Positions 857 through 10,992 of a stretch of 64,000 bases of DNA are shown here, piece after piece. Origin of the DNA: a virus; the UHGV virus genome UHGV-0293664; one strand, written 5' to 3'. The translations under genes were made by a program, and so were the position numbers. The notes under the pieces are model-generated. The model worked only from the letters and a program-made list of their open reading frames with translations. It was not told the origin of the DNA and ran no database searches. Numbering within the stretch: position 1 is the stretch's first letter; every line of letters begins with the position of its first letter.

Positions 857-928
857 ACCAGTAAAAACTTAAATATCTGTACTATAAGGATTCGTATGTT
901 TTATGTTCGCCATGGAACAGACACTGTT

Positions 929-1015
929 AACTGTCCGTGATACGGACACTACTGTCCGTCACGCGGACACATCTGCCCGTAATACGGACACTAACTGTCC
1001 GTGATACGGACACAT
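929..1015. repeat. four tandem copies (about 21-bp period) of palindrome GTCCGT-N3-ACGGAC; iteron or operator array
   Basis: Core 15-mers at 934-948 (gtccgtgatacggac), 954-968 (gtccgtcacgcggac), 975-989 (gcccgtaatacggac), 997-1011 (gtccgtgatacggac). Confidence 0.7.
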
Positions 1016-1144: not shown

Positions 1145-1400
1145 CTATAGGTAGTGTCGGCCCTTCATTGGCACTCGCCTACGAGGGGCGAGATGCCGGG
1201 CCTCCATGGTGCACACAATAACAGAAGTGCATACATGCAGGTCTGTTAACATGTGTGGGAGCGAAGCGATAGCGCAGGCCAAAGGCCGAGCACTGATGTG
1301 GACCACCGACGAAAGCTTGCCAGCGCCGTAAGGAGTCGGTTGAGAGTCTCCCGCGCGAGCTTGGATGAAGTTTATGTGTGGAAACGGACAAGAAGGCACC
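1145..1400. other. GC-rich non-coding island, candidate structured RNA or foreign insert
   Basis: Abrupt rise in G+C versus flanks; no plus-strand ORF; only overlapping minus-strand ORFs in two frames (1145..1399, 1179..1391) as expected for GC-rich non-coding DNA. Confidence 0.3.
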
Positions 1401-1517
1401 TAAATCGCTCCACAGCTATATAAACTGCACCAAGTAGGGCAATCACATCAGTTTGATAGAAAAGCTCGTTACAAAGCGATACAGTGAGTTTTTCTATAAC
1501 TTGAAGAGGAGGCTGCT

Positions 1518-2371: not shown

Positions 2372-2614
2372 ATGTTTAAGGTTAAGCTCGTTTTTCGTTC
2401 CATGAATGAGGATTATTTAGAAGATGAAGGTGAATTTCGTGCACTAGATGATGCAATAGATTTTGCCAACGACTTAGCTTGTATGAATACTGGTTATGGG
2501 TTATGCTGTTGGGATGGTGGTGTTCAGATTGGCGATAGCAAGATCTTCTACTTCTACCCAGAGCCGGATAACAAACAAATTAAGTATGTTTTATTTATTT
2601 GTGCTTTACAATGA
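2372..2614 (+). CDS. hypothetical small protein
   Basis: 80-aa ORF; TTGACA at 2292-2297 upstream suggests a promoter. Confidence 0.35.
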   Translation: MFKVKLVFRSMNEDYLEDEGEFRALDDAIDFANDLACMNTGYGLCCWDGGVQIGDSKIFYFYPEPDNKQIKYVLFICALQ

Positions 2615-2639
2615 GGTTGTTTTCGTGTATCATGATGAA

Positions 2640-2900
2640 TATCCAATTTAAAGATGAATTTGATGGCTTTATCTCCGGATGCTTTGAAACAGGGTTCGGA
2701 GAAGACTGAGTTCCCCTTAGAGGGCTTGATAGTGCACCACACTCAAAATGGTAGGGGCAGCCAGCACATGACGATGTGACCCCAGCCAACCTGTAATAAG
2801 GTCGAGCCCAAGTGCGGTAATGGGTATAGCTGGTAACCCACTTGTTGGGTCTTGTTGGTCCAGGACGCTGGGCAAGTCGCAGGGAACACCACCCTGCGGC
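2640..2900. other. second GC-rich non-coding island, candidate structured RNA
   Basis: High G+C; four overlapping minus-strand ORFs of about 62-64 aa in different frames and no credible coding frame. Confidence 0.3.
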
Positions 2901-2904
2901 GAAC

Positions 2905-2933
2905 TTGACAATCAGTATTTGCTATGATAAAAT
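2905..2933 (+). promoter_or_regulatory. sigma70-type promoter TTGACA-N17-TAAAAT
   Basis: TTGACA 2905-2910, 17-nt spacer, TAAAAT 2928-2933. Confidence 0.65.
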
Positions 2934-2961: not shown

Positions 2962-3300
2962 ATGGCGGATACAACTAAAAAGCGTCGCCGTAGAGGCAGA
3001 CCTCTGAAAGAGGAGTCCAACGCCATTCAGCTAGAGAAGAACATCCTTGATATGAAGGAATCTTTTATAGCGATGGTTCCAGAAGCTCACAAAGTTTTAA
3101 GAGAGCTGATGTTGGACCCGAAAACCAAACAAAATATTCGTCAAAGCATTGCAGAGTATGTTCTTGATAAGGCAGAACGAATGCAGGAAGAATATGATGA
3201 GATGTTTGGTGAAGAGGAAGAGGTGGTAGTGGAAGAGGCTGAAAAACCAGCACCCTTTATGCCATTTACCACAGAAATACAGCCTGTTGGCAATAGTTAA
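2962..3300 (+). CDS. basic/acidic small protein with KKRRRRGRP motif, putative nucleic-acid-binding regulator
   Basis: ATG at 2962 after RBS GGAGGA; Arg/Lys patch at N-terminus, acidic C-terminus; the track ORF 2842..3300 was trimmed because its upstream part covers the promoter. Confidence 0.5.
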   Translation: MADTTKKRRRRGRPLKEESNAIQLEKNILDMKESFIAMVPEAHKVLRELMLDPKTKQNIRQSIAEYVLDKAERMQEEYDEMFGEEEEVVVEEAEKPAPFMPFTTEIQPVGNS

Positions 3301-3396: not shown

Positions 3397-3471
3397 GCCC
3401 TGTTAGCTTAGTGGATAAAGCAGCGGCCTTCTAAGCCGTTGACACTGGTTCGAGTCCAGTACGGGGTGCCA
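3397..3471 (+). tRNA. tRNA-Arg (anticodon TCT)
   Basis: Hand-folded cloverleaf: 7-bp acceptor stem (two G-U pairs), D-loop with GG, anticodon loop cttctaa, T-arm actgg-ttcgagt-ccagt, encoded CCA. Confidence 0.7.
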
Positions 3472-3601
3472 AGTTCTTTTTAATGTAGCTTACTTTAGCA
3501 GAGTAAATCTTCGGCAAGTGGCGGTAACCACTTTACCGATACCTCATAGTTAGTGGTGAGAACACTAGCTATTTTAAAAAGAATTTAAATATTAGTATTT
3601 A

Positions 3602-3689
3602 GGTGAGTTAATTCCGTAGGGGTAGCGGGGCAGACTGTAAATCTGTTATCATTGCGATTCGGGTGGTTCGACTCCATCACTCACCACCA
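3602..3689 (+). tRNA. tRNA-Tyr (anticodon GTA), long variable arm
   Basis: Acceptor ggtgagt/actcacc, anticodon loop ctgtaaa, long variable arm, T-loop ttcgact, encoded CCA. Confidence 0.7.
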
Positions 3690-3803
3690 AATTTATATTT
3701 TTAAATGCATAAATCATACAGATAATGGCATTGATATTTATCGTCGTTTATACTAGTCACTAACTGCTCGAAAATCAGTGTCATTATCAGTATTGTTTAT
3801 AAA

Positions 3804-3894
3804 AGAGGGTAGGGAGCAATGGTGCTCAAGCGGTCTTGAAAACCGTCCCGTTGAGGATGACTCGATGATGGTTCGATTCCATTATCCTCTGCCA
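3804..3894 (+). tRNA. tRNA-Ser (anticodon TGA), long variable arm
   Basis: Acceptor agagggt/atcctct, anticodon stem gcggt/accgt with loop cttgaaa, long variable arm, T-loop ttcgatt, encoded CCA. Confidence 0.7.
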
Positions 3895-3992
3895 TATTGT
3901 TGACCTTGTAATTAAGCGAAAGCCGGAAGCAGAACCGGATTATCAAATGTTACAGTCGTCATCGCCGACTAGCAACATGGTCAACATACTGA

Positions 3993-4089
3993 GCTAGGTA
4001 AGCCCTTTGGCAAGGGCGAGGATTTTTAATCCTGAAAATAGACGAGGTAGTCGTTGAATACATAGGTGGTTCGATTCCATCACCTAGCA
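3993..4089 (+). tRNA. aberrant 97-nt tRNA-like gene (possible anticodon TTT; isotype unresolved; may be a pseudogene)
   Basis: Perfect 7-bp acceptor stem gctaggt/acctagc, canonical D-arm gccc-tttggcaa-gggc and T-arm ggtgg-ttcgatt-ccatc, but about 30 extra nt between anticodon and T arms and no encoded CCA. Confidence 0.4.
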
Positions 4090-4096
4090 CCTTTTT

Positions 4097-4172
4097 GCTG
4101 ATGTAGCACAATTGGTAGTGCAATTGATTTGTAATCAATAGGTTGCAGGTTCGAGTCCTGCTATCAGCACCA
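4097..4172 (+). tRNA. tRNA-Thr (anticodon TGT)
   Basis: Acceptor gctgatg/tatcagc, anticodon stem attga/tcaat with loop tttgtaa, T-arm gcagg-ttcgagt-cctgc, encoded CCA. Confidence 0.75.
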
Positions 4173-4173
4173 T

Positions 4174-4248
4174 GGCCCTGTAGCTGGAAGGTTCAAGCAA
4201 GCGACTCATAATCGCCAGACGGTGGTTCAATTCCACCCAGGGCCACCA
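4174..4248 (+). tRNA. tRNA with CAT anticodon (Met, or Ile if lysidine-modified)
   Basis: Perfect acceptor ggccctg/cagggcc, anticodon loop ctcataa, T-arm ggtgg-ttcaatt-ccacc, encoded CCA; D-stem and first anticodon-stem pair are imperfect. Confidence 0.6.
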
Positions 4249-4259
4249 AATAATAAATA

Positions 4260-4336
4260 CTCCGCGTAGCTCAGCTTGGTAGAGCGCCTGATTTGGGATC
4301 AGGAGGTCGAGTGTTCGAATCACTCCGTGGAGACCA
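4260..4336 (+). tRNA. tRNA-Pro (anticodon TGG)
   Basis: Acceptor ctccgcg/cgtggag, D-arm gctc-agcttggtag-agcg, anticodon stem cctga/tcagg with loop tttggga (G37), T-arm gagtg-ttcgaat-cactc, encoded CCA. Confidence 0.75.
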
Positions 4337-4383
4337 CTTTCAGTTATACTTTAAACATATACAAACAAAAGGAACCTTTAAAA

Positions 4384-4653
4384 ATGTATACACTTAAAAT
4401 TGTAGAGCGTGTAAATCCAACCCATACCGTAGATTTTCGTGACGATTTCAATCCTCTGGCTGTAAATCTTCGAGAGTCATATCATGAACTCAGCTGCGAT
4501 GCAGTGGTGGTCTTTTTTGAAGACAACTCTGAAGGGGCGGTAGCTTGTGTTGTTGATAGTGAGCAGAAGTTTTATATTTACAGAGATGTAGATGCATACT
4601 TGATGAATGAAAATGCAGTTACTGTTAGAATCATCCACCGAGTGCCTCGATAA
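4384..4653 (+). CDS. hypothetical small protein
   Basis: ATG at 4384 after RBS-like AAAGGAA; the longer track ORF 4276..4653 overlaps tRNA-Pro and was trimmed. Confidence 0.4.
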   Translation: MYTLKIVERVNPTHTVDFRDDFNPLAVNLRESYHELSCDAVVVFFEDNSEGAVACVVDSEQKFYIYRDVDAYLMNENAVTVRIIHRVPR

Positions 4654-4705
4654 GTATTAGTCTCCTTTTAGTTAGTTTCGATCTATTTAGGTTACTCAAT
4701 TTTAA

Positions 4706-4741
4706 CCCGCCCCGTTAGCTGTATAGCTGCGGGGTTTTTTC
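4706..4741 (+). terminator. intrinsic terminator
   Basis: Stem ccccg/cgggg with internal palindromic loop, followed by TTTTTTCGTTT. Confidence 0.5.
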
Positions 4742-4758
4742 GTTTCTGGAGCCTTAAA

Positions 4759-5157
4759 ATGATTTCAGTTTTAACATGGCTGAGCAGGTATAGAGGGGTC
4801 ATAAAAGGTTTAGTTTTTGCAGCTGCGATAGGTACAGCTTATCTTGGGGCCGTATATTGGTTTAACTCTAAGATTAATGAAGCCTACCAAGAGGGTGTAT
4901 CAGCAACAGAGTTAAAGTGGGAACGGATCCTTGATCAGCAACAAAAGCAGGCCGACAAAATTAAAATGGGCCACGCAGAGGAGGTTAAAAACCTTGAAAA
5001 ATCCCTTTCTGATCTGCAGGATAAATTAAATATGGCTGAGAAGGCAGGTAAAGAAAAGCAGATTATCTACCTCCAGTCACCTGAGGGCAAGAAGTCAACA
5101 CTTCCTGATCAGCTTATAGATATTTATAATGAGAGTATCAATCAGGAGGATCAATGA
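4759..5157 (+). CDS. i-spanin (Rz-like inner-membrane spanin)
   Basis: N-terminal hydrophobic segment GLVFAAAIGTAYLGAVYWF followed by a charged coiled-coil region; next gene overlaps its 3' end. Confidence 0.5.
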   Translation: MISVLTWLSRYRGVIKGLVFAAAIGTAYLGAVYWFNSKINEAYQEGVSATELKWERILDQQQKQADKIKMGHAEEVKNLEKSLSDLQDKLNMAEKAGKEKQIIYLQSPEGKKSTLPDQLIDIYNESINQEDQ

Positions 5158-5441
5158 GAGTTGCTACACTGTTTATTGTGTGCTTGTTATTATGTGGGTG
5201 TGCAACCAGCGTTGAGAGAGAATACAAGATTGACCCTCCTGATGTAGGAAGGTTGATTGTTAAACCCCCGGAAGGTGCCATGAAACCACCTGCTAAAGCT
5301 ATGCCTTTGAAGAAAGGTGCGCCAGATGCAGTGAATTCTGGCATTATGAGGGATAATAATCTGTCTTGTAGCAATGATAGAGTTAAATTGATCATTTTGC
5401 AAGACTATATTAGAACACTGTTTCCAAAGGAGAGAGGTTAA
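5154..5441 (+). CDS. o-spanin (Rz1-like outer-membrane lipoprotein)
   Basis: Signal peptide with lipobox-like LLLCGCAT, Pro-rich mature part (PPDVGRLIVKPPEGAMKPPAKAMP); start overlaps the i-spanin stop. Confidence 0.5.
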   Translation: MRVATLFIVCLLLCGCATSVEREYKIDPPDVGRLIVKPPEGAMKPPAKAMPLKKGAPDAVNSGIMRDNNLSCSNDRVKLIILQDYIRTLFPKERG

Positions 5442-5866
5442 TGTCTAAGATTTACGGACCGTGTTCTGAAAAGCAGAAGATGATCCTAGAAAACGATGCA
5501 GATATTTTGGTAATCGGCGGTGCCGCAGGGTCTGGCAAGTCGTTCCTCCTGCAGTTGATGCCGCTTAAAATTATTGATGACCCACACAGCTCTGTGGTTA
5601 TGTTCCGAAGAACAACTCCACAGTTGGAAGGTGAGGGTGGGCTATGGCCTAAAGCAGTAGCTATTTACAGTGATCTGCCTGAAAACATTAAACCAAAGTT
5701 CAGAGAAAAGGATCATAAGTTTATTTTTCCACGGTTTGATCCGAGCACTGGCAAGTGGGATAGGAGCAAAAAGGGGGCCGTTGTAAAATACTGCCACATG
5801 GAGTATGTCCAAGATAAGCTTAACCATCAAGGCCTTGAGTACACAATGGTTTGCTTCGATGAGGGT
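5441..5866 (+). CDS. terL: terminase large subunit, exon 1 (ATPase N-terminal part)
   Basis: Walker A GGAAGSGKS and Walker B MVCFDE; the ORF stops at TAA straight after the Walker B region, where terminases normally continue. Confidence 0.75.
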
Positions 5867-6749
5867 TAATTTGTAGCTCTCGTAAAACCTCCCTAATTGC
5901 GGGGAAATCTTTATTATTGACACCACCAACCTGTCATGGTAACATGATAGAGGCTTCGAAGAGAGATCGAAGGTATGGTAACAGTGTGTTAATTTAGATA
6001 ATCCGCAGCGAAGCATCCGAAAGGATGAACGTTCAACGACTAGTCGAAAGACGTAGAATCAAGCGATTCGAAACGGGAGGGTGAATGTGTAATACTAAAA
6101 AATGTATGGATTGCCAAAGAGTTCTACCTCTTGATGATTTCTTTTTATCATCTAAGAGCAAGGATGGATACTCCGGTACATGCAAGGAATGCTATATGTA
6201 CTACAGGAAGAATGGATCTCGTAGAAACAAAAATATGGTTAAGAGAGATGATGCAGCATCTTTTATTCAAGACTTACTGAAGAAAGGTGAGCTTTTTGAA
6301 TGTAAATCTTGTCATGAAAGTATGCTTGCTGATAGTTTTTACACAAAACGTGACTATGGTAAAGTGTATCTGGTTACGAACAGGTGTAAGATGTGTGAAA
6401 AGTTTTATCAGATTGAGAAGAAATTTCACATAACAAAAGATGAATACTATCGTTTACTCTCAGATCAAGATCATAAGTGTGCCATTTGTAGAATATCTCT
6501 TGATGAGTATAGGACGCAAGGGTACAGAGATTTCTTTTGTGTTGATCATGACCATAAAACTGGTGCTGTAAGAGGGTTGCTTTGTGATAAATGCAACAGA
6601 GCTTTAGGTTTCTTCCAAGAGGATGAGGAAACCATTCTTAGAGCAGCAGAGTATTTGCACATTCATAAGATATAGTCTGGTCTGCATGGAGACATGCAGC
6701 TGCCTGAAAATGGCGGGGCAAGACTAGCGACCTTGCCCGAACATAAACG
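5867..6749 (+). mobile_element. putative group I-type self-splicing intron carrying an HNH homing endonuclease gene
   Basis: Separates the two terminase halves, which are in different frames; exon 1 ends in T and the proposed intron ends in G; hairpins with GAAA tetraloops (catcc-gaaa-ggatg, tcgaaaga); boundaries approximate. Confidence 0.5.
6085..6675 (+). CDS. HNH homing endonuclease (endonuclease VII-like HNH family)
   Basis: Motif CVDHDHKTGAVRGLLCDKCNRALG plus several CxxC zinc-ligand pairs; lies inside the terminase-interrupting insertion. Confidence 0.8.
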   Translation: MCNTKKCMDCQRVLPLDDFFLSSKSKDGYSGTCKECYMYYRKNGSRRNKNMVKRDDAASFIQDLLKKGELFECKSCHESMLADSFYTKRDYGKVYLVTNRCKMCEKFYQIEKKFHITKDEYYRLLSDQDHKCAICRISLDEYRTQGYRDFFCVDHDHKTGAVRGLLCDKCNRALGFFQEDEETILRAAEYLHIHKI

Positions 6750-7871
6750 ACGCAGTTCGAATGGGAGCAGATAGACTATCTGATGTCTCGTCTGCGATCT
6801 CAGTCAAAGTATCCATCAAGAATGGTTATCAGCTGTAACCCCGATTCAGAACACATGCTTGCCAAACTGGTTAGGTGGTGGTTGGACGATGAAGGGTATC
6901 CAGATCCGGAGAAATGCGGTAAGAAAAGATATTTTATCCGACGCGACGGTGAATTTATCTGGGGAGACTCTAAAGAAGAGTTGATAGAGAAATACACCAC
7001 GGTTAACGGACTGGGTGTAGAGATCAAGCCGAGACCGTTGTCATTCTCGTTTATAGGCGCAACAATCTTCGATAATCCTGTCTGTTTGAGAGACAACCCA
7101 GAATACCTTGCTTTCCTTGAAGGTCTACCCGAGCTTGAAAAAGCTCAGCTTCTTCATGGCAACTGGTTTGCCAAACCTGAGGGTGCGAACTATTTCCAAA
7201 GATCTTTCCTTCGTGATGCCGATAGAGTACCACTTGGATCAGTATCTTGCAGGGCATGGGATAAAGCTGGAACTGAAAGAACTTCAGGTAATAAATTCCC
7301 TGACTTTACCGCCAGTGTTAAGGTAAGTAAAGATAGCGACGGCTTTTATTACCTGTCCGGTTATTATTGTCCTGAGAACGTGGATGACGGGAGGTATTCC
7401 ACAGGTCTGGAAGGTAAGTTCTGTAAAAAGGCTGGTGAACGAGATGTGATCATCAGGAAACAGGCACAGTTTGATGGTGATGATTGTATAATCGTATTCT
7501 CTGTGGACCCCGGTCAGGCAGGTAAGAGTGAGTTCTTAACTTCCTCCAGATCCTTACTCGCCGAAGGGTTTAGGGTTGAAGAAGACCCAATGCCTTCCAA
7601 CAAATCTAAACTAACAAGGTTCTCACCTTTTGCCAATCTTGCCCAACAAGGAATGGTGAGGATTGTAAAATCCAGTTTTCATCCTGATACTCTGGAAGCA
7701 TTTCTGACTGAACTTGAAAAATTCAACGGGGAAAGATCAACATTTAACAGAAAAGACGACTGGGCCGACTGTGTAGCTTCTGCGATTAATTTCCTGGAGA
7801 AAGAGGAGGTAGCACTTCCTTGTGTTATTCCATCAATCTCATCACCTTCTATGTTCAAGCGTTTTATCTAA
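6750..7871 (+). CDS. terL: terminase large subunit, exon 2 (coupling and nuclease C-terminal part)
   Basis: Frame open from 6747; proposed junction gives ...MVCFDEG|TQFEWEQIDYLMSRLR...; SRMVISCNPDSEH coupling-like motif, acidic nuclease-like motifs FSVDPGQAGK and DDWADCVASAINF. Confidence 0.7.
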   Translation, partial: TQFEWEQIDYLMSRLRSQSKYPSRMVISCNPDSEHMLAKLVRWWLDDEGYPDPEKCGKKRYFIRRDGEFIWGDSKEELIEKYTTVNGLGVEIKPRPLSFSFIGATIFDNPVCLRDNPEYLAFLEGLPELEKAQLLHGNWFAKPEGANYFQRSFLRDADRVPLGSVSCRAWDKAGTERTSGNKFPDFTASVKVSKDSDGFYYLSGYYCPENVDDGRYSTGLEGKFCKKAGERDVIIRKQAQFDGDDCIIVFSVDPGQAGKSEFLTSSRSLLAEGFRVEEDPMPSNKSKLTRFSPFANLAQQGMVRIVKSSFHPDTLEAFLTELEKFNGERSTFNRKDDWADCVASAINFLEKEEVALPCVIPSISSPSMFKRFI

Positions 7872-7874
7872 GTG

Positions 7875-7903
7875 TTGCCAATCTTGATCAGATGTGGTAC
7901 AAT
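7875..7903 (+). promoter_or_regulatory. sigma70-type promoter with extended -10 (TTGCCA-N17-TGgTACAAT)
   Basis: TTGCCA 7875-7880; TG at 7895-7896; TACAAT 7898-7903. Confidence 0.5.
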
Positions 7904-7919
7904 AGAGTAATTGGAGATA

Positions 7920-7946
7920 ATAGCCCTCTGATGAGGGCTATTTTGT
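7920..7946 (+). terminator. hairpin plus T-tract just downstream of the promoter (possible attenuator)
   Basis: atagccctc-tgatg-agggctat followed by tttgtt, about 20 nt downstream of the -10 and upstream of the portal RBS. Confidence 0.4.
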
Positions 7947-7971
7947 TATACTGTTTTGAGGGGTAAAGCTT

Positions 7972-9528
7972 GTGTCCAAAAAGAACCGCAGGAAACACAA
8001 CGCCACAGCCAAAACTGTGAATAAATCTGGGAACGCAGGCGCACCAACTCATAATGTTCGTATGAGTGAGATCGGTTCTGGCGCACTTTCCCAAATTATG
8101 GCAGAATCGCAATCTATGATGGTTGAGGAATTGCGTTGGCCTCAGCTGATTGCCACCGTGGAGACTATGAAATGTGATTCCACAGTTGCTACTGCCTTAG
8201 ATACAAAATATGTTTTCATCACGAAAGCATTCAATGATTTTAAGATCCTTTATAATGTTAAAAGTGAAGACTCTAAGAAAGCTGCAGAGCTTATAGAGTA
8301 TTCTTTGCGTAATTTGGCAAACCAACAAACTCTTCGAGATATCGCAAGAAGCGCAGCTACCTTTAACGAGTATGGTTTTTCACTGTTTGAGAAAGTATAC
8401 CGCAGAGAGAAAGAAGGTAAATATGCCGGGATGCTTCTTATTGATAAAATTGCATTCCGACCTCAGGCCAGCTTGTCCAGATCAGAGCCGTTTGTTTTTG
8501 ACAAGAATAGTAGAACACTGACAGGTATTTATCAGTCACCTAATGCATTTCTAAACACTCAGAATGCACGCTGGGCTGGACCTCTTGCTGCAATGCCTTC
8601 AAAAGGCTTTAATGAGCCTGAAATTTTCATCCCTGCTAAAAAGCTTATGCTCATGACCCTGTCAGGAACAGAATCTAACCCTGCAGGTGTATCACCAATG
8701 ATAGGTTGCTACAGATCTTTCCGTGAGAAAGTTCTGATTGAAAACCTTGAGGTTGTTGGCTGTTCCAAAGACCTTGGTGGTGTGCTTGAGCTGAAAATTC
8801 CTTCCAATATTTTGAACAAGGCCAGCATTGACCCGAATTCAATGGAAGGGAGAATGGTTGCAGACCTTATGCTTGACGCAGCAAACGCCCATAGTGGTGA
8901 GCAAAGTTTCTTTATACTTCCGTCTGATAGAGATAAGTCTGGTAAAGAGCTTTACTCCATGACCCTGAAGGGGGTTGACGGTATGGGTAAGCAGTATTCC
9001 ACTAAAGATTTGATTGATGCCCGTAAGAAGGCGATTCTTGACCGTTTCGGTGCTGGCTTTATTAACCTTGGTAACGATAACGTCGGATCTTTCTCTCTGT
9101 CTGAGTCAAAACAGTCTATCCATGGTCATTTTGTTCAGCGTGATATAGATATTATCACTGAGGCCTTCAATAAAGATCTTATCCCACAGCTTCTGGCATT
9201 GAATGGTATCATCCTTGAAGATGATGATATGCCTAAACTGAAACCTGGTCTGATTGAAGAGGTGGACATGGAGAGCTTCTCCAAGTTTGTCCAGAGGATC
9301 GGTGCTGTAGGTTACTTGCCAAAAACTCCTGCAGTAATTAATAAGATTCTTGAAGTAGGCGGGTTTGATGAAAGATTTGACGAGGACATGGATCAGGAAG
9401 AGCTGATGAAGCTCTTGGGCCAGGACATTAGTAGGGCTGGTGATGGAATGGCTGCAGGATCCACTGGCAACGGCACTTCTAAGATGTCATCAACCAGAGA
9501 TAATTCCATATCCAACATGGAAAATTAA
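7972..9528 (+). CDS. portal protein
   Basis: 518-aa ORF (GTG start after RBS GAGGGG) directly downstream of terminase; size and position typical of portal; no motif check possible. Confidence 0.55.
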   Translation: MSKKNRRKHNATAKTVNKSGNAGAPTHNVRMSEIGSGALSQIMAESQSMMVEELRWPQLIATVETMKCDSTVATALDTKYVFITKAFNDFKILYNVKSEDSKKAAELIEYSLRNLANQQTLRDIARSAATFNEYGFSLFEKVYRREKEGKYAGMLLIDKIAFRPQASLSRSEPFVFDKNSRTLTGIYQSPNAFLNTQNARWAGPLAAMPSKGFNEPEIFIPAKKLMLMTLSGTESNPAGVSPMIGCYRSFREKVLIENLEVVGCSKDLGGVLELKIPSNILNKASIDPNSMEGRMVADLMLDAANAHSGEQSFFILPSDRDKSGKELYSMTLKGVDGMGKQYSTKDLIDARKKAILDRFGAGFINLGNDNVGSFSLSESKQSIHGHFVQRDIDIITEAFNKDLIPQLLALNGIILEDDDMPKLKPGLIEEVDMESFSKFVQRIGAVGYLPKTPAVINKILEVGGFDERFDEDMDQEELMKLLGQDISRAGDGMAAGSTGNGTSKMSSTRDNSISNMEN

Positions 9529-9595
9529 AAATTATCAACACAGGGGGTTGCAAAACCTCCTTTGGCGTGATAAAATAATCCACATGGGGAATAAG

Positions 9596-10015
9596 ATGCC
9601 ACAGGAAGAAATGATTTCCTACGAAATCATCTACGAGCCTGACACTAAAGATGCTCACGGTGAGTGGATGAGTAAAGACACCATCAAAAAGGCTAAAGAT
9701 AACTGGGACGCAGCATACGCCGCAGGCCTAGTTTCTGAAAACCTTTTTCACTTGACCTCTACAGATGCTTTCACCATTGAAAAGACGTGGATTCAAGAAG
9801 AGTTTGATGTTGTAGTGATTGGCACTGAGCAGGTCATCAAGGCTGGCTCTTGGGTTGCTAAAGTTAAATACAATAATCCTGAATTATGGGAAGCTAAGAA
9901 GGCTGGCATTGTTGGTGGCCTAAGCATTCAGGCAACAGGTAATGTTGATGAAGAAACTGGTGAAATTACCAACGTAAACTTCGGGATCAGTGTTGTAGAA
10001 GAGGGCAATGAATAA
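9596..10015 (+). CDS. head morphogenesis protein (possible prohead protease)
   Basis: Between portal and scaffold-like gene; start trimmed to the ATG at 9596 after GGGGAA, because the track ORF 9440..10015 overlaps the portal 3' end. Confidence 0.3.
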   Translation: MPQEEMISYEIIYEPDTKDAHGEWMSKDTIKKAKDNWDAAYAAGLVSENLFHLTSTDAFTIEKTWIQEEFDVVVIGTEQVIKAGSWVAKVKYNNPELWEAKKAGIVGGLSIQATGNVDEETGEITNVNFGISVVEEGNE

Positions 10016-10992
10016 TGTCTGAAAAAACGATTACTATTAAAGAGAAGGGGATTGCCCTGTGCCATAAGGCGCAAGGCTATAGCGCTAACAACAGACCTGT
10101 ATCTCTTTTGATGAAGAGTGATCTTCAGCCTGAGCAGTTGACAGACGATATTGTTAAGGCACTTCGCCAAGTTACTGTGGAGCTTAGTTTTGAAGAATAC
10201 CTGCGTCGTTTCTTCGATATGTGGTATGACGATGCCAAGGCACTTGCACACATGCTTGGTTTTGAGATTGAAGAGGAAGCTTGGGCTAAAGAGCATCCTG
10301 ATTGGGAATGGGCGCAAGCTGACGCAGAGTCTTGCATTGCATGGCTGGAAGAGCGTTGTGATAACGTGACCATTCATAAAGCTGCAAAAGAAGGCAAGCA
10401 GCTTAGTGTGGTAGATCAGTACAGCCTGTTAAAAACACAACAGATTTTTGAACAAGTAACCGCTGATCTCTTCGATAAAGAAGGGAACCTGATCAAGGCG
10501 GTACAGGAACCTACTGAGGTGGATAAAACTACCGAGGTGGATGATGTTGCAAAATCCGCAAATACCGAGGAGAATCCGGTGGACGTAACCAAAACTAAAG
10601 AGTATCTGGATCTGCTGAAGCAAGTAGAAGAGCTGAAAGCAACCCAGAGTAAAGCTGAAGAAATCATCAAGGCCCAGGTTGAAGTTGAAAAAGCTAAAAT
10701 GCTGGCTAAAGCTCAAGCTTTAAGCTTTGTTGGTGAAGAAGATCATGCAACCCTTGTTGACTTCATGCTGGAAAAAGCTAACGAACCTATCGTAGCTATG
10801 CTGGAGAAAGCTCAAGCCAAAATTAAAGAGCTGGAAGCAGAGGTGCATAAAACCAAAGAAGAGTTTGCCACCACTGAACATGGTAATGATGGCGAACCTG
10901 TTGTGGATGATATTGCAAAATCCGCAGAAGAAATTCTTGCTGAAAACGTTGCAAAAGCGCTTGCTCGTGCACGTGCAGAATCTAACAAATAA
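10015..10992 (+). CDS. scaffolding protein
   Basis: 325 aa, highly acidic and Ala/Glu/Lys-rich with coiled-coil character, placed between portal/protease and capsid genes. Confidence 0.5.
   Translation: MSEKTITIKEKGIALCHKAQGYSANNRPVSLLMKSDLQPEQLTDDIVKALRQVTVELSFEEYLRRFFDMWYDDAKALAHMLGFEIEEEAWAKEHPDWEWAQADAESCIAWLEERCDNVTIHKAAKEGKQLSVVDQYSLLKTQQIFEQVTADLFDKEGNLIKAVQEPTEVDKTTEVDDVAKSANTEENPVDVTKTKEYLDLLKQVEELKATQSKAEEIIKAQVEVEKAKMLAKAQALSFVGEEDHATLVDFMLEKANEPIVAMLEKAQAKIKELEAEVHKTKEEFATTEHGNDGEPVVDDIAKSAEEILAENVAKALARARAESNK

What the first reader, a model, noticed from the sequence alone, without database searches (positions are those of the whole stretch)
2640..2900. Second GC-rich non-coding island upstream of a consensus promoter
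About 260 bp of high G+C with four overlapping short minus-strand ORFs in different frames and no credible coding frame. It lies between a small early gene and the promoter at 2905. Together with the island at 1145-1400 this suggests a class of GC-rich structured elements in the early region.
Basis: seen in the sequence. Interest (0 to 1): 0.45.

Follow-up and report, generated by a model that had tools for sequence, protein, structure and literature searches.

The report
Conserved pseudoknotted phage RNA, also in T4
The GC-rich stretch is not junk or a hidden protein gene but a gene for a folded RNA whose 33-base core is almost identical in more than a thousand unrelated E. coli-type phages, including T4, and which matches no described RNA family, so its function is still open.

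Summary
Window 2701-2900 has 56% G+C against 44% overall, carries four overlapping minus-strand ORFs, and keeps no reading frame in relatives. The element is really about 2710-2904 on the + strand; 2640-2709 belongs to a small conserved ORF.

The window comes from an rV5-like phage (Vequintavirus). Bases 2782-2826 are about 98% identical to an element just 5' of gene vs.8 in roughly 840 T4-like phage records. The same core occurs in several uncultured phage lineages, often beside tRNA clusters.

Across lineages the flanks differ completely in sequence but keep one architecture:
- helix P1 enclosing a hairpin;
- helix P2 closing a small junction domain with near-invariant loops;
- a pseudoknot (X:X') tying the 3' tail back into the P1 loop.

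P1, P2 and X:X' covary strongly. No Rfam 15 family, tRNA or tmRNA model matches. The core was not found in 185,579 bacterial and archaeal species genomes.

A diverged sister lineage has a consensus promoter directly in front of the RNA and another directly behind it, so it looks like a stand-alone RNA gene. Island 1145-1400 is unrelated.

The most likely mechanism is a stable RNA whose invariant core binds a conserved partner. Riboswitch and ribozyme readings remain open.

The parts
2605..2633 (+). Sigma-70-like promoter candidate (TTTACA-17-TATCAT) that could start a transcript at about 2640 running through the small ORF into the RNA
   Evidence: Consensus scan, 10 of 12. Not annotated in the rV5 record. 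Inferred only.
2611..2709 (+). Small ORF overlapping the left part of the finding (MRLFSCIMMNIQFKDEFDGFISGCFETGFGED*). Its ATG overlaps the stop of the upstream gene. It is not part of the structured RNA.
   Evidence: ORF list. Annotated as a 33-aa CDS in rV5_ev158. KDEFDGF is kept through synonymous changes in L133 and L015, and as an 8-aa ORF MKDEFDGF* with an AAGGAG ribosome-binding site in the sister lineage.
2672..2702 (+). Hairpin UCUCCG...CGGAGA. In the sister lineage (L056/L066/L103) a consensus promoter occupies this position instead.
   Evidence: MFE fold; alignment; promoter scan of L066.
2710..2904 (+). The structured non-coding RNA as a whole (about 195 nt)
   Evidence: Begins where the sister lineage's promoter would start transcription and ends at the next promoter. 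Fold z = -2.05. Conserved in 119 Vequintavirus records.
2710..2753 (+). 5' module GUUCCCCUUAGAGGGCUUGAUAGUGCACCACACUCAAAAUGGUA, specific to the rV5-type RNAs. It is nearly identical in diverged lineages, where a variant is repeated 3' of the core.
   Evidence: Alignments.
2754..2783 (+). Helix P1 (GGGG 2754-2757 with CCCC 2780-2783) enclosing strand X and hairpin Pa (CACAU 2765-2769, loop GACG, AUGUG 2774-2778)
   Evidence: P1 is GGAAC:GUUCC in L066/L103, GGGAA:UUCCC in T4, GGGAG:CUCCC in Dhakavirus, AAAGG:CCUUU and AAGC:GCUU in other T4-likes. All 5 P1 pairs covary in A3. Pa is CUACG-GACG-CGUAG in L066.
2760..2765 (+). Pseudoknot strand X (GCCAGC), pairing with X' at 2829-2834
   Evidence: Partners change together: L066 UGAGG:CCUCA, L103 GUGAGGG:CCCUUAC, Moon GCCGA:UCGGU, Q7622 CACAC:GUGUG, TG1 CUCGA:UCGAG, L105 AAACCA:UGGUUU. 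3 of 4 pairs covary in A3. Cognate against swapped partners: -6.2 against -3.2 kcal/mol, 0 of 5000 permutations.
2786..2788 (+). Helix P2, 5' strand (CCA), pairing with UGG 2821-2823. It closes the core domain.
   Evidence: The pair next to the core is seen as A:U, U:A, U:G and C:G, and G:C in L074. P2 has double changes in 2 of its 4 pairs in A3 and 3 of 4 in A4.
2789..2820 (+). Near-invariant core ACCUGUAAUAAGGUCGAGCCCAAGUGCGGUAA. Probable hairpin P3 (2789-2792 with 2799-2802, loop GUAAUA). Junction CGA. Mini-hairpin P4' (G2806:C2815, C2807:G2814) or P4 (2806-2808 with 2816-2818). Then GGUAA.
   Evidence: In the 49-sequence alignment 19 of 50 columns are invariant and 7 more are at least 90% conserved. 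About 98% identical to T4-like phages. P3 and P4 never vary. P4' is backed by compensatory changes in L133 (G:C) and the second copy in L113 (U:A), and by C-to-A at the third P4 position (the column of window C2808) in L134/L136/L137.
2821..2834 (+). P2 3' strand (UGG), linker GUAUA, and pseudoknot strand X' (GCUGGU)
   Evidence: As for P2 and X.
2836..2898 (+). Three 3' hairpins specific to the rV5 type: ACCCA/UGGGU 2836-2850; GUCCAG-GACG-CUGGGC 2858-2873; CGCAGGG/CCCUGCG 2878-2898. None is followed by a U-tract.
   Evidence: MFE fold. L077 lacks most of the first by a 10-base deletion. The sister lineage has a different 3' part. No terminator is called here apart from one weak hit at 2836-2850.
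2905..2933 (+). Strong promoter of the downstream gene (2962-3300, phrog_3330). It marks the 3' border of the RNA.
   Evidence: Scan, 11 of 12. Annotated as P74 in rV5.

Best explanation
Window 2710-2904 (+ strand) is a gene for a structured non-coding RNA of about 195 nt. It belongs to a widespread family of phage RNAs that does not seem to have been described.

Shown:
- The family has a conserved architecture. Helix P1 encloses a hairpin and a single-stranded segment X. Helix P2 follows directly and closes a small junction domain whose about 33 bases are nearly invariant (ACCUGUAAUAAGGUCGAGCCNNAGNGCGGUAA). The 3' tail X' folds back to pair with X, giving a compact pseudoknot.
- The scaffold helices change sequence freely but stay complementary. 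The core does not change.
- The family is confined to phages.

Inferred:
- The pseudoknotted scaffold exists to present the invariant core, which binds a conserved partner: a host or phage protein, an RNA or a small molecule.
- In rV5-like phages the RNA is made as a separate, probably stable, trans-acting RNA. It would be read from an upstream early promoter and, in the sister lineage, from its own consensus promoter. It does not regulate the downstream gene in cis, because that gene has its own strong promoter.
- Because the RNA recurs beside phage tRNA clusters, the partner most likely belongs to tRNA or translation biology, or to host defences that act on them.
- In T4-like phages the same module is built into the 5' leader of vs.8, where partner binding could additionally set expression of that gene.
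For: Identity and spread:
- The window is rV5-like (96-97% identity).
- The full island occurs in 119 Vequintavirus records.
- The 45-base core is 91-98% identical in about 840 T4-like records. There it sits between the upstream gene and the conserved start of vs.8, while the Vs.8 protein itself falls to 37% identity.
- Further lineages turned up in metagenome and IMG/VR scans. There were 89 model hits in the fetched loci.

Structure:
- 35 T4-like leaders: 89.6% of cells paired against 77.4% in shuffles (0 of 500) and 33-53% when partners are slid. 12 pairs have changes on both sides; P1 5 of 5, X 3 of 4, P2 2 of 4.
- Cognate X:X' against swapped partners: 0 of 5000 permutations.
- The same helices are rebuilt with other bases in the rV5 sister lineages L066, L103 and L133.
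- G:U pairs and the fold z-scores fix the + strand as the RNA strand.

Stand-alone RNA:
- In L066 the RNA lies between an 11-of-12 promoter (4579-4606) and the next promoter (4784-4812).
- In L105, L086 and L074 the element is followed by an intrinsic terminator.
- It is tRNA-adjacent in the window (tRNAs from 3397) and in L066, L090, L104, L105, L044, L070, L094, L053 and L096.

Phage-only:
- No extended-core match in 185,579 species genomes.
- No match in 5,426 E. coli genomes.
Against: - No partner is known, and no transcript ends have been mapped.
- In the window lineage the RNA has no promoter immediately in front and no terminator. It could simply be part of a long early transcript.
- By number of genomes, most instances are 5' leaders of one gene (vs.8), which is the classic picture of a cis-regulator.
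- Invariant cores are equally typical of ribozymes and riboswitch aptamers.
- The tRNA association is a recurrence across lineages, not a tested statistic.
- P3 and P4 are invariant, so their pairing is not demonstrated.
- X:X' could pair between molecules rather than within one.
Confidence: 0.55

Rival explanations
1. It is a riboswitch or other cis-regulatory leader. The core is an aptamer for a small molecule or protein, and binding changes transcription termination or translation of the gene that follows, as for vs.8 in T4-like phages.
For: - The element is always in the 5' leader of vs.8 in T4-like genomes, about 65-110 bases before the start codon. A conserved hairpin GUGCCANGGAAUGGCCC lies between it and the ribosome-binding site.
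- Tandem copies occur in some leaders (L084, L108, L115).
- An intrinsic terminator follows 30-80 bases after the element, with a gene behind it, in L086, L105 and L074.
- A compact pseudoknot with invariant junction bases resembles an aptamer.
Against: - In the window the next gene has its own 11-of-12 promoter between it and the RNA, and there is no terminator or sequestered ribosome-binding site.
- In L066 the RNA is bracketed by two promoters.
- In L090, L104 and L105 it trails tRNA genes, and in L053 and L044 it sits inside large non-coding regions.
- The family is absent from bacterial genomes, unlike most metabolite riboswitches.
- I found no convincing mutually exclusive pairing between the aptamer and a platform.
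Confidence: 0.17
2. It is a self-cleaving ribozyme or RNA-processing module that cuts polycistronic phage transcripts, for example separating mRNAs from tRNA precursors.
For: - The strand order P1a-X-hairpin-P1b-(closed domain)-X' is the nested double-pseudoknot topology of HDV-like ribozymes (from the helices; the comparison is from my own knowledge of the HDV fold).
- HDV-like 'theta' ribozymes are reported next to phage tRNAs (own knowledge), and this RNA recurs beside tRNA clusters.
- Near-invariant unpaired bases and tandem copies are typical of small ribozymes.
Against: - No ribozyme family of Rfam 15 matches, even at E up to 10 on short stretches.
- The conserved part lies where HDV-like ribozymes have their dispensable P4.
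- The equivalents of L3/P1.1 and J4/2 vary in length and sequence, with no invariant C.
- L086 lacks the hairpin altogether.
Confidence: 0.15
3. It is a decaying relic: either a leftover of a horizontally acquired T4 vs.8 leader that lost its gene, or the remains of tRNA genes, which occupy this position in other Vequintavirinae genera.
For: - No vs.8 homologue exists in the window.
- Av-05, a member of the same subfamily, carries a T4-type leader plus vs.8.
- KB57, GAP31 and pEa_SNUABM_56 have tRNA genes upstream of the phrog_3330 gene.
Against: - Three diverged rV5-type lineages keep P1, Pa, X:X' and the core through compensatory changes.
- L133 even compensates inside the core.
- The sister lineage has a dedicated consensus promoter.
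- No tRNA or tmRNA signal from ARAGORN or Rfam.
Confidence: 0.04
4. It codes for a protein, or acts as a DNA-level site such as an origin, a recombination site or a homing-endonuclease target.
For: Several ORFs of 35-64 aa overlap it, and some records annotate hypothetical proteins there. The core is conserved at DNA level across unrelated phages.
Against: - Frames are broken by indels among close relatives.
- Conservation follows base-pairing rather than codons, with G:U pairs that would be C-A mismatches on the other strand.
- Only the + strand folds better than shuffles.
Confidence: 0.04

Closest known systems
HDV-like (including phage 'theta') self-cleaving ribozymes
   Same: Same order of strands: a nested double pseudoknot (outer helix, second helix crossing it, one hairpin inside, one closed domain before the return strand). 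About 100 nt. Reported beside phage tRNAs (own knowledge).
   Different: No Rfam HDV-type model matches. Here the invariant part is the domain equivalent to the dispensable P4. The catalytic-core equivalents are variable and there is no conserved C. Cleavage is untested.
ROOL and GOLLD RNAs (large ornate RNAs of phages and prophages, often next to tRNA genes, function unknown)
   Same: Phage-borne, tRNA-adjacent, highly structured, no known function. In gut-phage lineages (L053, L044, L096) the core is embedded in non-coding regions of 400-800 nt.
   Different: No match to either Rfam family. Much smaller (about 100-200 nt). Different hosts (Enterobacterales phages).
Riboswitch aptamers with pseudoknots
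   Same: Compact pseudoknotted fold, invariant junction and loop bases, 5'-leader position and occasional tandem copies in T4-like phages.
   Different: No known class matches. Absent from bacterial genomes. In the window and in many other lineages it is not in a 5' leader. No expression platform identified.
phi29 prohead (packaging) RNA
   Same: A phage RNA of about 120-170 nt built on a three-way junction, whose covarying loop-loop pairs act between molecules, and which works with a small ASCE packaging ATPase (own knowledge). In T4-likes this RNA precedes Vs.8, a 180-aa single-domain ASCE ATPase with weak fold matches to phi29 gp16 and terminase ATPase domains (TM below 0.5).
   Different: No Rfam pRNA match. 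rV5-like phages carry the RNA without any vs.8 homologue. There is no evidence of multimers or of a link to packaging.
T4 stable RNAs of unknown function in the tRNA cluster (species 1 and 2, rnaC/rnaD; own knowledge)
   Same: Phage-encoded small stable RNAs associated with tRNA genes.
   Different: The core occurs only once per T4 record, at the denV-vs.8 junction and not in the tRNA cluster (one place per record).

Membership tests
The phage RNA family defined here (core plus P1, P2 and pseudoknot X) | Core sequence and structure: ACCUGURAHAAGGUCNAGCC..G.GCGGUAA closed by P2 | tested here: met
   Model R1 hits 2781-2830 at 71 bits, E 2e-23. 45 bases are about 98% identical to T4-likes.
The phage RNA family defined here (core plus P1, P2 and pseudoknot X) | Helix P1 immediately 5' of P2, enclosing a hairpin and strand X | tested here: met
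   GGGG 2754-57 with CCCC 2780-83. Hairpin 2765-2778. Both are rebuilt as GGAAC:GUUCC and CUACG:CGUAG in L066. P1 covaries 5 of 5 in T4-likes.
The phage RNA family defined here (core plus P1, P2 and pseudoknot X) | Pseudoknot between X (inside the P1 loop) and X' (3' of P2) | tested here: met
   GCCAGC 2760-65 with GCUGGU 2829-34. Cognate partners are far better than swapped ones. 3 of 4 pairs covary.
Any Rfam 15 family (4227 models) | Covariance-model match | tested here: not met
   Nothing at 2640-2905 at E up to 1 in a 12-kb scan. Only two noise hits at E up to 10 in a 401-base scan. Nothing for the T4 leader or for other lineages.
tRNA or tmRNA (gene or remnant) | Cloverleaf or tRNA-like domain detectable by ARAGORN or Rfam | tested here: not met
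   ARAGORN finds tRNAs only from 3397 onward and no tmRNA. There is no significant similarity to E. coli ssrA.
HDV-like ribozyme | Nested double-pseudoknot strand order | tested here: met
   The order P1a-X-hairpin-P1b-domain-X' follows from the helices supported.
HDV-like ribozyme | Conserved catalytic core (L3/P1.1 and a catalytic C in J4/2); dispensable P4 | tested here: not met
   The linker before X' varies (GUAUA, CCU, UUUACAU, GUAAAUA, CCUACA) with no invariant C. Hairpin loops are unrelated. The invariant bases lie in the P4-equivalent.
HDV-like ribozyme | Self-cleavage at the 5' end of P1 | not testable with these tools
   Needs in-vitro transcription and a cleavage assay.
Riboswitch | Conserved aptamer in a 5' leader, coupled to an expression platform of the downstream gene | tested here: not met
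   This applies to the window. An independent promoter at 2905-2933 separates the RNA from the next gene, and there is no terminator or ribosome-binding-site hairpin. In T4-likes the leader position is met, but no switch was identified.
Riboswitch | Specific ligand binding | not testable with these tools
   Needs in-line probing or ITC.
   No BLAST similarity. No R1 hit in 1145-1420. Island 1 folds about equally on both strands.

The most novel reading that the evidence does not exclude
The family is a new functional class of phage RNA whose invariant core is either a catalytic centre or an aptamer for a host immune or translation factor. One possibility is a decoy or sponge against a tRNA-targeting or nucleotide-signal-based defence. 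In T4 it heads the vs.8-vs.4 gene string, which from my own knowledge includes the cGAMP-binding anti-CBASS protein Vs.4/Acb2. That would make it the first RNA-based counter-defence or sensing module shared by T4-like and rV5-like phages, overlooked in the best-studied phage.
Probability: 0.2. Interest if true: 0.9.

Novelty: new variant of a known kind. Interest (0 to 1): 0.68.

Why it matters
A folded RNA with a 33-base core that stays nearly invariant while everything around it is rewritten must do something important. It is present in more than a thousand phage genomes of two unrelated groups used as models and in phage therapy (T4-like and rV5-like).

It is missing from Rfam, and in T4 it is hidden under a mis-set vs.8 start codon. 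Its recurrence beside phage tRNA clusters offers a concrete handle on why large lytic phages carry such clusters and what accompanies them.

T4 and rV5 are genetically tractable, so deletion, pull-down and cleavage tests are immediately feasible.

Tried and rejected
1. tmRNA mimicry. From memory the core and its flanks in gut-phage RNAs resembled E. coli tmRNA helix 2 and PK4. With the real ssrA sequence only chance 7-8-mers match, so I rejected it. The tmRNA-like tag reading frame in L053 is a separate, unexplained feature.

2. tRNA-gene remnant or tRNA-like fold. ARAGORN and Rfam are negative. By inspection the loops do not fit anticodon or T-loop rules.

3. Host mimicry or antisense. blastn against all complete E. 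coli genomes finds nothing at E up to 1e-5. Short complementarities cannot be evaluated.

4. Relation to island 1: none.

5. Homologues in other Vequintavirinae genera at the syntenic place: none, only tRNA genes there.

6. An alignment-free duplex test with broad windows was uninformative (mean z = -0.5). I replaced it with narrow windows and partner swapping.

7. The RNAalifold nested model for the rV5 type pairs GUUCC 2710-14 with GGGGC 2754-58. I consider it less likely than P1, because P1 covaries in all other lineages, but it is not excluded as an alternative state.

8. Vs.8 function. Pfam gave nothing and PHROGs 'unknown'. There is no PDB sequence relative. The AlphaFold model matches only generic ASCE ATPase domains. 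None of this clarifies the RNA.

9. Literature searches for vs.8, T4 or rV5 non-coding RNAs and phage ribozymes or riboswitch candidates found no description of this element. This is not proof that none exists.

Full report
**1.

The window is an rV5-like myovirus (genus Vequintavirus). Bases 2560-2960 are 96-97% identical to phages JES2013, rV5_ev158 and others.

- G+C rises to 0.56 in 2701-2900, against about 0.37-0.44 on either side and a window mean of 44.2%.
- Four minus-strand ORFs of 62-64 aa overlap the stretch in different frames.
- None is conserved. rV5_ev158 differs by +1 and -2 base indels, and other relatives by a 10-base deletion and many indels.
- The promoter at 2905-2933 matches 11 of 12 consensus positions and is annotated as P74 in the rV5 reference. 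In that record the 287 bases between ORF 75 and P74 carry no feature.

2640-2709 is AT-richer and belongs to a small + strand ORF (2611-2709), so the GC-rich structured part is about 2710-2904. Only the + strand folds better than shuffled sequence (z = -2.8 against 0.06; z = -2.05 for 2710-2904).

**2. The lead: a core shared with T4**

A sensitive BLAST of the region against 50,697 phage records hit 962 records. Of these, 119 are rV5-like and hold the whole island. The rest are T4-like phages of Escherichia, Shigella, Klebsiella, Yersinia, Salmonella, Citrobacter and others. These match only window 2782-2826, at 91-98% identity. The parts left and right of that core occur only in Vequintavirus.

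In T4 the match lies just after denV, under the annotated start of vs.8. In most records nothing is annotated there. The conserved start of the protein (MRTFLTGPYLSLMNAF...) is about 65-110 bases downstream of the core, so the element is a 5' leader.

The Vs.8 protein diverges to 37% identity across Tevenvirinae genera, while the RNA core stays above 90%. The core is therefore under stronger constraint than the protein it precedes.

**3. Other lineages**

Degenerate core patterns scanned over metagenome contigs and IMG/VR recovered many more T4-like and rV5-like copies, three diverged rV5-related lineages (L056/L066/L134-137, L103, L133), and unrelated contexts:

- directly after a tRNA cluster (L090);
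- 175-300 bases after a tRNA and followed by an intrinsic terminator (L104, L105);
- followed by a terminator and then a gene (L086/L119, L074);
- in front of tRNA-Ser/Thr/Arg/Met genes inside larger non-coding regions of about 46-kb gut phages (L044, L070, L094);
- inside an about 800-base non-coding region of about 70-kb phages that also holds a tmRNA-like tag frame (L053, L096);
- as tandem copies (L113, L084, L108, L115).

The scan of one genome for each of 185,579 bacterial and archaeal species gave nine hits. None continues into the rest of the core, and that number is what chance predicts. All complete E. coli genomes are negative. The family looks phage-only.

**4. Architecture**

Although the flanks are unrelated in sequence, every lineage can be drawn the same way.

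- **P1.** This helix encloses a single-stranded segment X and usually a hairpin (Pa). Examples: window GGGG 2754-57 with CCCC 2780-83; L066 GGAAC:GUUCC; T4 GGGAA:UUCCC; Dhakavirus GGGAG:CUCCC; others AAAGG:CCUUU, AAAGA:UCUUU, AAGC:GCUU; L086 GUAG:CUAC.
- **Pa.** Window CACAU-GACG-AUGUG; L066 CUACG-GACG-CGUAG.
- **P2.** This helix follows directly and closes the core. Window CCA 2786-88 with UGG 2821-23; others UCCC:GGGG, CUGGU:GCCAG, ACGCG:UGCGU.
- **X'.** After P2 and a short linker, this strand pairs back to X. Examples: window GCCAGC 2760-65 with GCUGGU 2829-34; L066 UGAGG:CCUCA; L103 GUGAGGG:CCCUUAC; Moon GCCGA:UCGGU; Q7622 CACAC:GUGUG; TG1 CUCGA:UCGAG; Winklervirus CCUGA:UCAGG; L105 AAACCA:UGGUUU.

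Counts on 35 distinct T4-like leaders:

| Measure | Value |
|---|---|
| Cells forming standard pairs | 89.6% |
| Same, in column shuffles | 77.4% (0 of 500 reach the observed value) |
| Same, with partners slid 1-3 columns | 33-53% |
| Pairs with changes on both sides | 12 |
| P1 pairs that covary | 5 of 5 |
| X:X' pairs that covary | 3 of 4 |
| P2 pairs that covary | 2 of 4 |

Because register shifts blur X:X' in an alignment, I also compared each X with its own X' and with the X' of other sequences. Cognate duplexes average -6.2 kcal/mol against -3.2, and none of 5000 partner permutations does as well. Relatedness of the sequences inflates such numbers. The independent lineages listed above each rebuild the helix with different bases.

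**5. The core**

In 49 distinct sequences aligned without gaps, 19 of 50 columns are invariant and 7 more are at least 90% conserved.

- A hairpin P3 (ACCU/AGGU, loop GURAHA) and a second small hairpin are plausible but never vary, so covariation says nothing about them.
- For the second hairpin two registers are possible. The register G2806:C2815 with C2807:G2814 is supported by a C:G to G:C change in L133 and a C:G to U:A change in the second copy of L113. It is also consistent with the C-to-A change at the next base (the column of window C2808) in L134/L136/L137, which would break the other register.
- In that register GGUAA (2816-2820) is left single-stranded and invariant.

A covariance model of the core finds exactly one copy in the window (71 bits, E about 2e-23). 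It finds nothing in island 1145-1400.

**6. What it is not**

- No Rfam 15 family matches the window element, the T4 leader or the other lineages, even at permissive thresholds.
- ARAGORN finds no tRNA or tmRNA there.
- A resemblance to tmRNA that I recalled from memory did not survive comparison with the real ssrA sequence.
- Other Vequintavirinae genera have tRNA genes at the syntenic place and no copy of the element. Relic status is nevertheless contradicted by the compensatory changes among rV5-type lineages.
- The window has no vs.8 homologue.

**7. Transcription context**

- In the window a promoter-like site (TTTACA-17-TATCAT, 2605-2633) lies upstream. The strong promoters P75 (2292-2320) and P74 (2905-2933) bracket the region.
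- In the sister lineage the segment that forms a hairpin in the window (2672-2702) is replaced by an 11-of-12, TG-extended promoter. It would start transcription a few bases before GUUCCCCUUAGAGGG, and the next promoter follows directly after the RNA. That is the layout of an independent RNA gene of about 170 nt.
- There is no U-tract terminator at the 3' end in either lineage, so read-through into the next gene and the tRNA cluster (from 3397) is likely. A discrete RNA would then need processing.

**8. Mechanism**

What is shown is a pseudoknotted scaffold under selection for pairing only, presenting a junction and loop core under selection for sequence.

The simplest reading is that the core is a binding or active site and the scaffold holds it in shape. 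I favour a trans-acting, partner-binding RNA in rV5-like phages for four reasons:
- the downstream gene has its own promoter;
- the sister lineage gives the RNA its own promoter;
- other lineages end it with a terminator or attach it to tRNA operons;
- the family is absent from cellular genomes.

The recurrent tRNA neighbourhood points to tRNA or translation biology, or to defences aimed at it. That step is inference.

Two rivals stay open.
- **Riboswitch-type cis-regulator.** Supported by the leader position and tandem copies in T4-likes and by terminators after the element elsewhere. It is a poor fit to the window itself.
- **Self-cleaving ribozyme.** The strand order equals that of HDV-like ribozymes. 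However, the conserved bases sit where those ribozymes are dispensable, and no model matches.

Vs.8 gave no help. It is a single ASCE/RecA-like ATPase domain with only weak matches to helicase, terminase and phi29 gp16 ATPase domains. That leaves a distant analogy to phi29 packaging RNA as a speculation only.

**9. Novelty and verdict**

- I found no description of it in Rfam or in the searchable literature. I cannot exclude that it is listed in large catalogues of unnamed candidates.
- I file it as a new variant of a known kind (an orphan structured phage RNA). There is about a 20% chance that it is a new functional class.
- Interest is high for a 260-base intergenic stretch, mainly because the same element sits unrecognised in phage T4 and can be tested at once.

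Noticed in passing
window 2611-2709 (+); L066 4551-4577; L056, L103, L136: A small ORF whose peptide KDEFDGF is conserved. 21 bases (AAAGATGAATTTGATGGCTTT) are identical between diverged lineages, and L133 and L015 carry only synonymous changes. In the sister lineage it is an 8-aa ORF MKDEFDGF* with a strong ribosome-binding site, and its stop codon abuts the -35 box of the RNA's promoter. It may be a leader peptide or micro-protein.
   Followed up: partly
window 1145-1420: The first GC-rich island (55% G+C) is also confined to Vequintavirus (119 records, 89-99% identity). It folds better than shuffles on both strands (z = -2.3 and -2.5), has no Rfam hit, is annotated as ORF 78 (56 aa, GTG start) in rV5, and is unrelated to island 2. 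Its nature is unresolved.
   Followed up: partly
window 903-1010: Repeated motifs of the type CTGTCCGTGATACGGACAC / CGTAATACGGACAC lie directly after a gene matching replication-initiation protein families (506-856, phrog_12838, HTH_36). This looks like an iteron array of a replication origin.
   Followed up: no
window 5857-6699; L066 7591-8803: A group I intron-like hit (47 bits, just under the Rfam gathering score of 50). In rV5_ev158 the terminase large-subunit CDS here is joined from two pieces around an endonuclease VII-like gene. The sister lineage has two such hits.
   Followed up: no
window 3602-3686 and 3993-4091: A tRNA-like sequence is found by Rfam (39 bits) but not by ARAGORN, and corresponds by position to the tRNA-Tyr annotated in rV5. 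A 99-base 'tRNA' has a four-base anticodon call. Structured-looking spacers of 100-130 bases lie between several tRNA genes.
   Followed up: no
L053 6700-7530; L096 10380-11300: Gut-phage contigs of about 70 kb carry an about 800-base non-coding region. It contains the core between two long hairpins and, 370 bases downstream, a tmRNA-like resume and tag frame (GCA AAC GAU GAU GUU GUU CUG AUG GCU GCU UAA = ANDDVVLMAA*; Rfam tmRNA_permuted 33.7 bits, below threshold). No tRNA-like domain is detectable.
   Followed up: partly
L001 1491-1607 (T4 AF158101 64796-64912): The annotated start of T4 vs.8 lies inside the RNA element. The start conserved across genera is 117 bases downstream, and in many relatives the upstream frame is closed. 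The T4 annotation is probably wrong.
   Followed up: yes
L031 (KPV15) 118-700; L025 197-246; L029 74-123 and 596-645: In Jiaodavirus an internal-head-protein gene is inserted between the RNA and vs.8. The hairpin GYGCCAAGGAAUGGCCC is duplicated on both sides of the insert, and UTI-K1 has two full copies of the RNA. The hairpin may serve as a recombination joint.
   Followed up: no
phage records MG0656xx: Eighteen records named 'Campylobacter phage', with host given as Campylobacter jejuni, are 98-99% identical to E. coli rV5-like phages across this region. The host assignment is probably an artefact.
   Followed up: no
L013/L021 (phage Av-05): Av-05 (Vequintavirinae, Avunavirus) carries a T4-type RNA leader plus a vs.8 gene 88% identical to T4's. 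It lies elsewhere in the genome than the rV5 island: contig coordinates 106572-110108, against the syntenic region at 3428-10637. This looks like a recent transfer of the cassette between phage families.
   Followed up: partly
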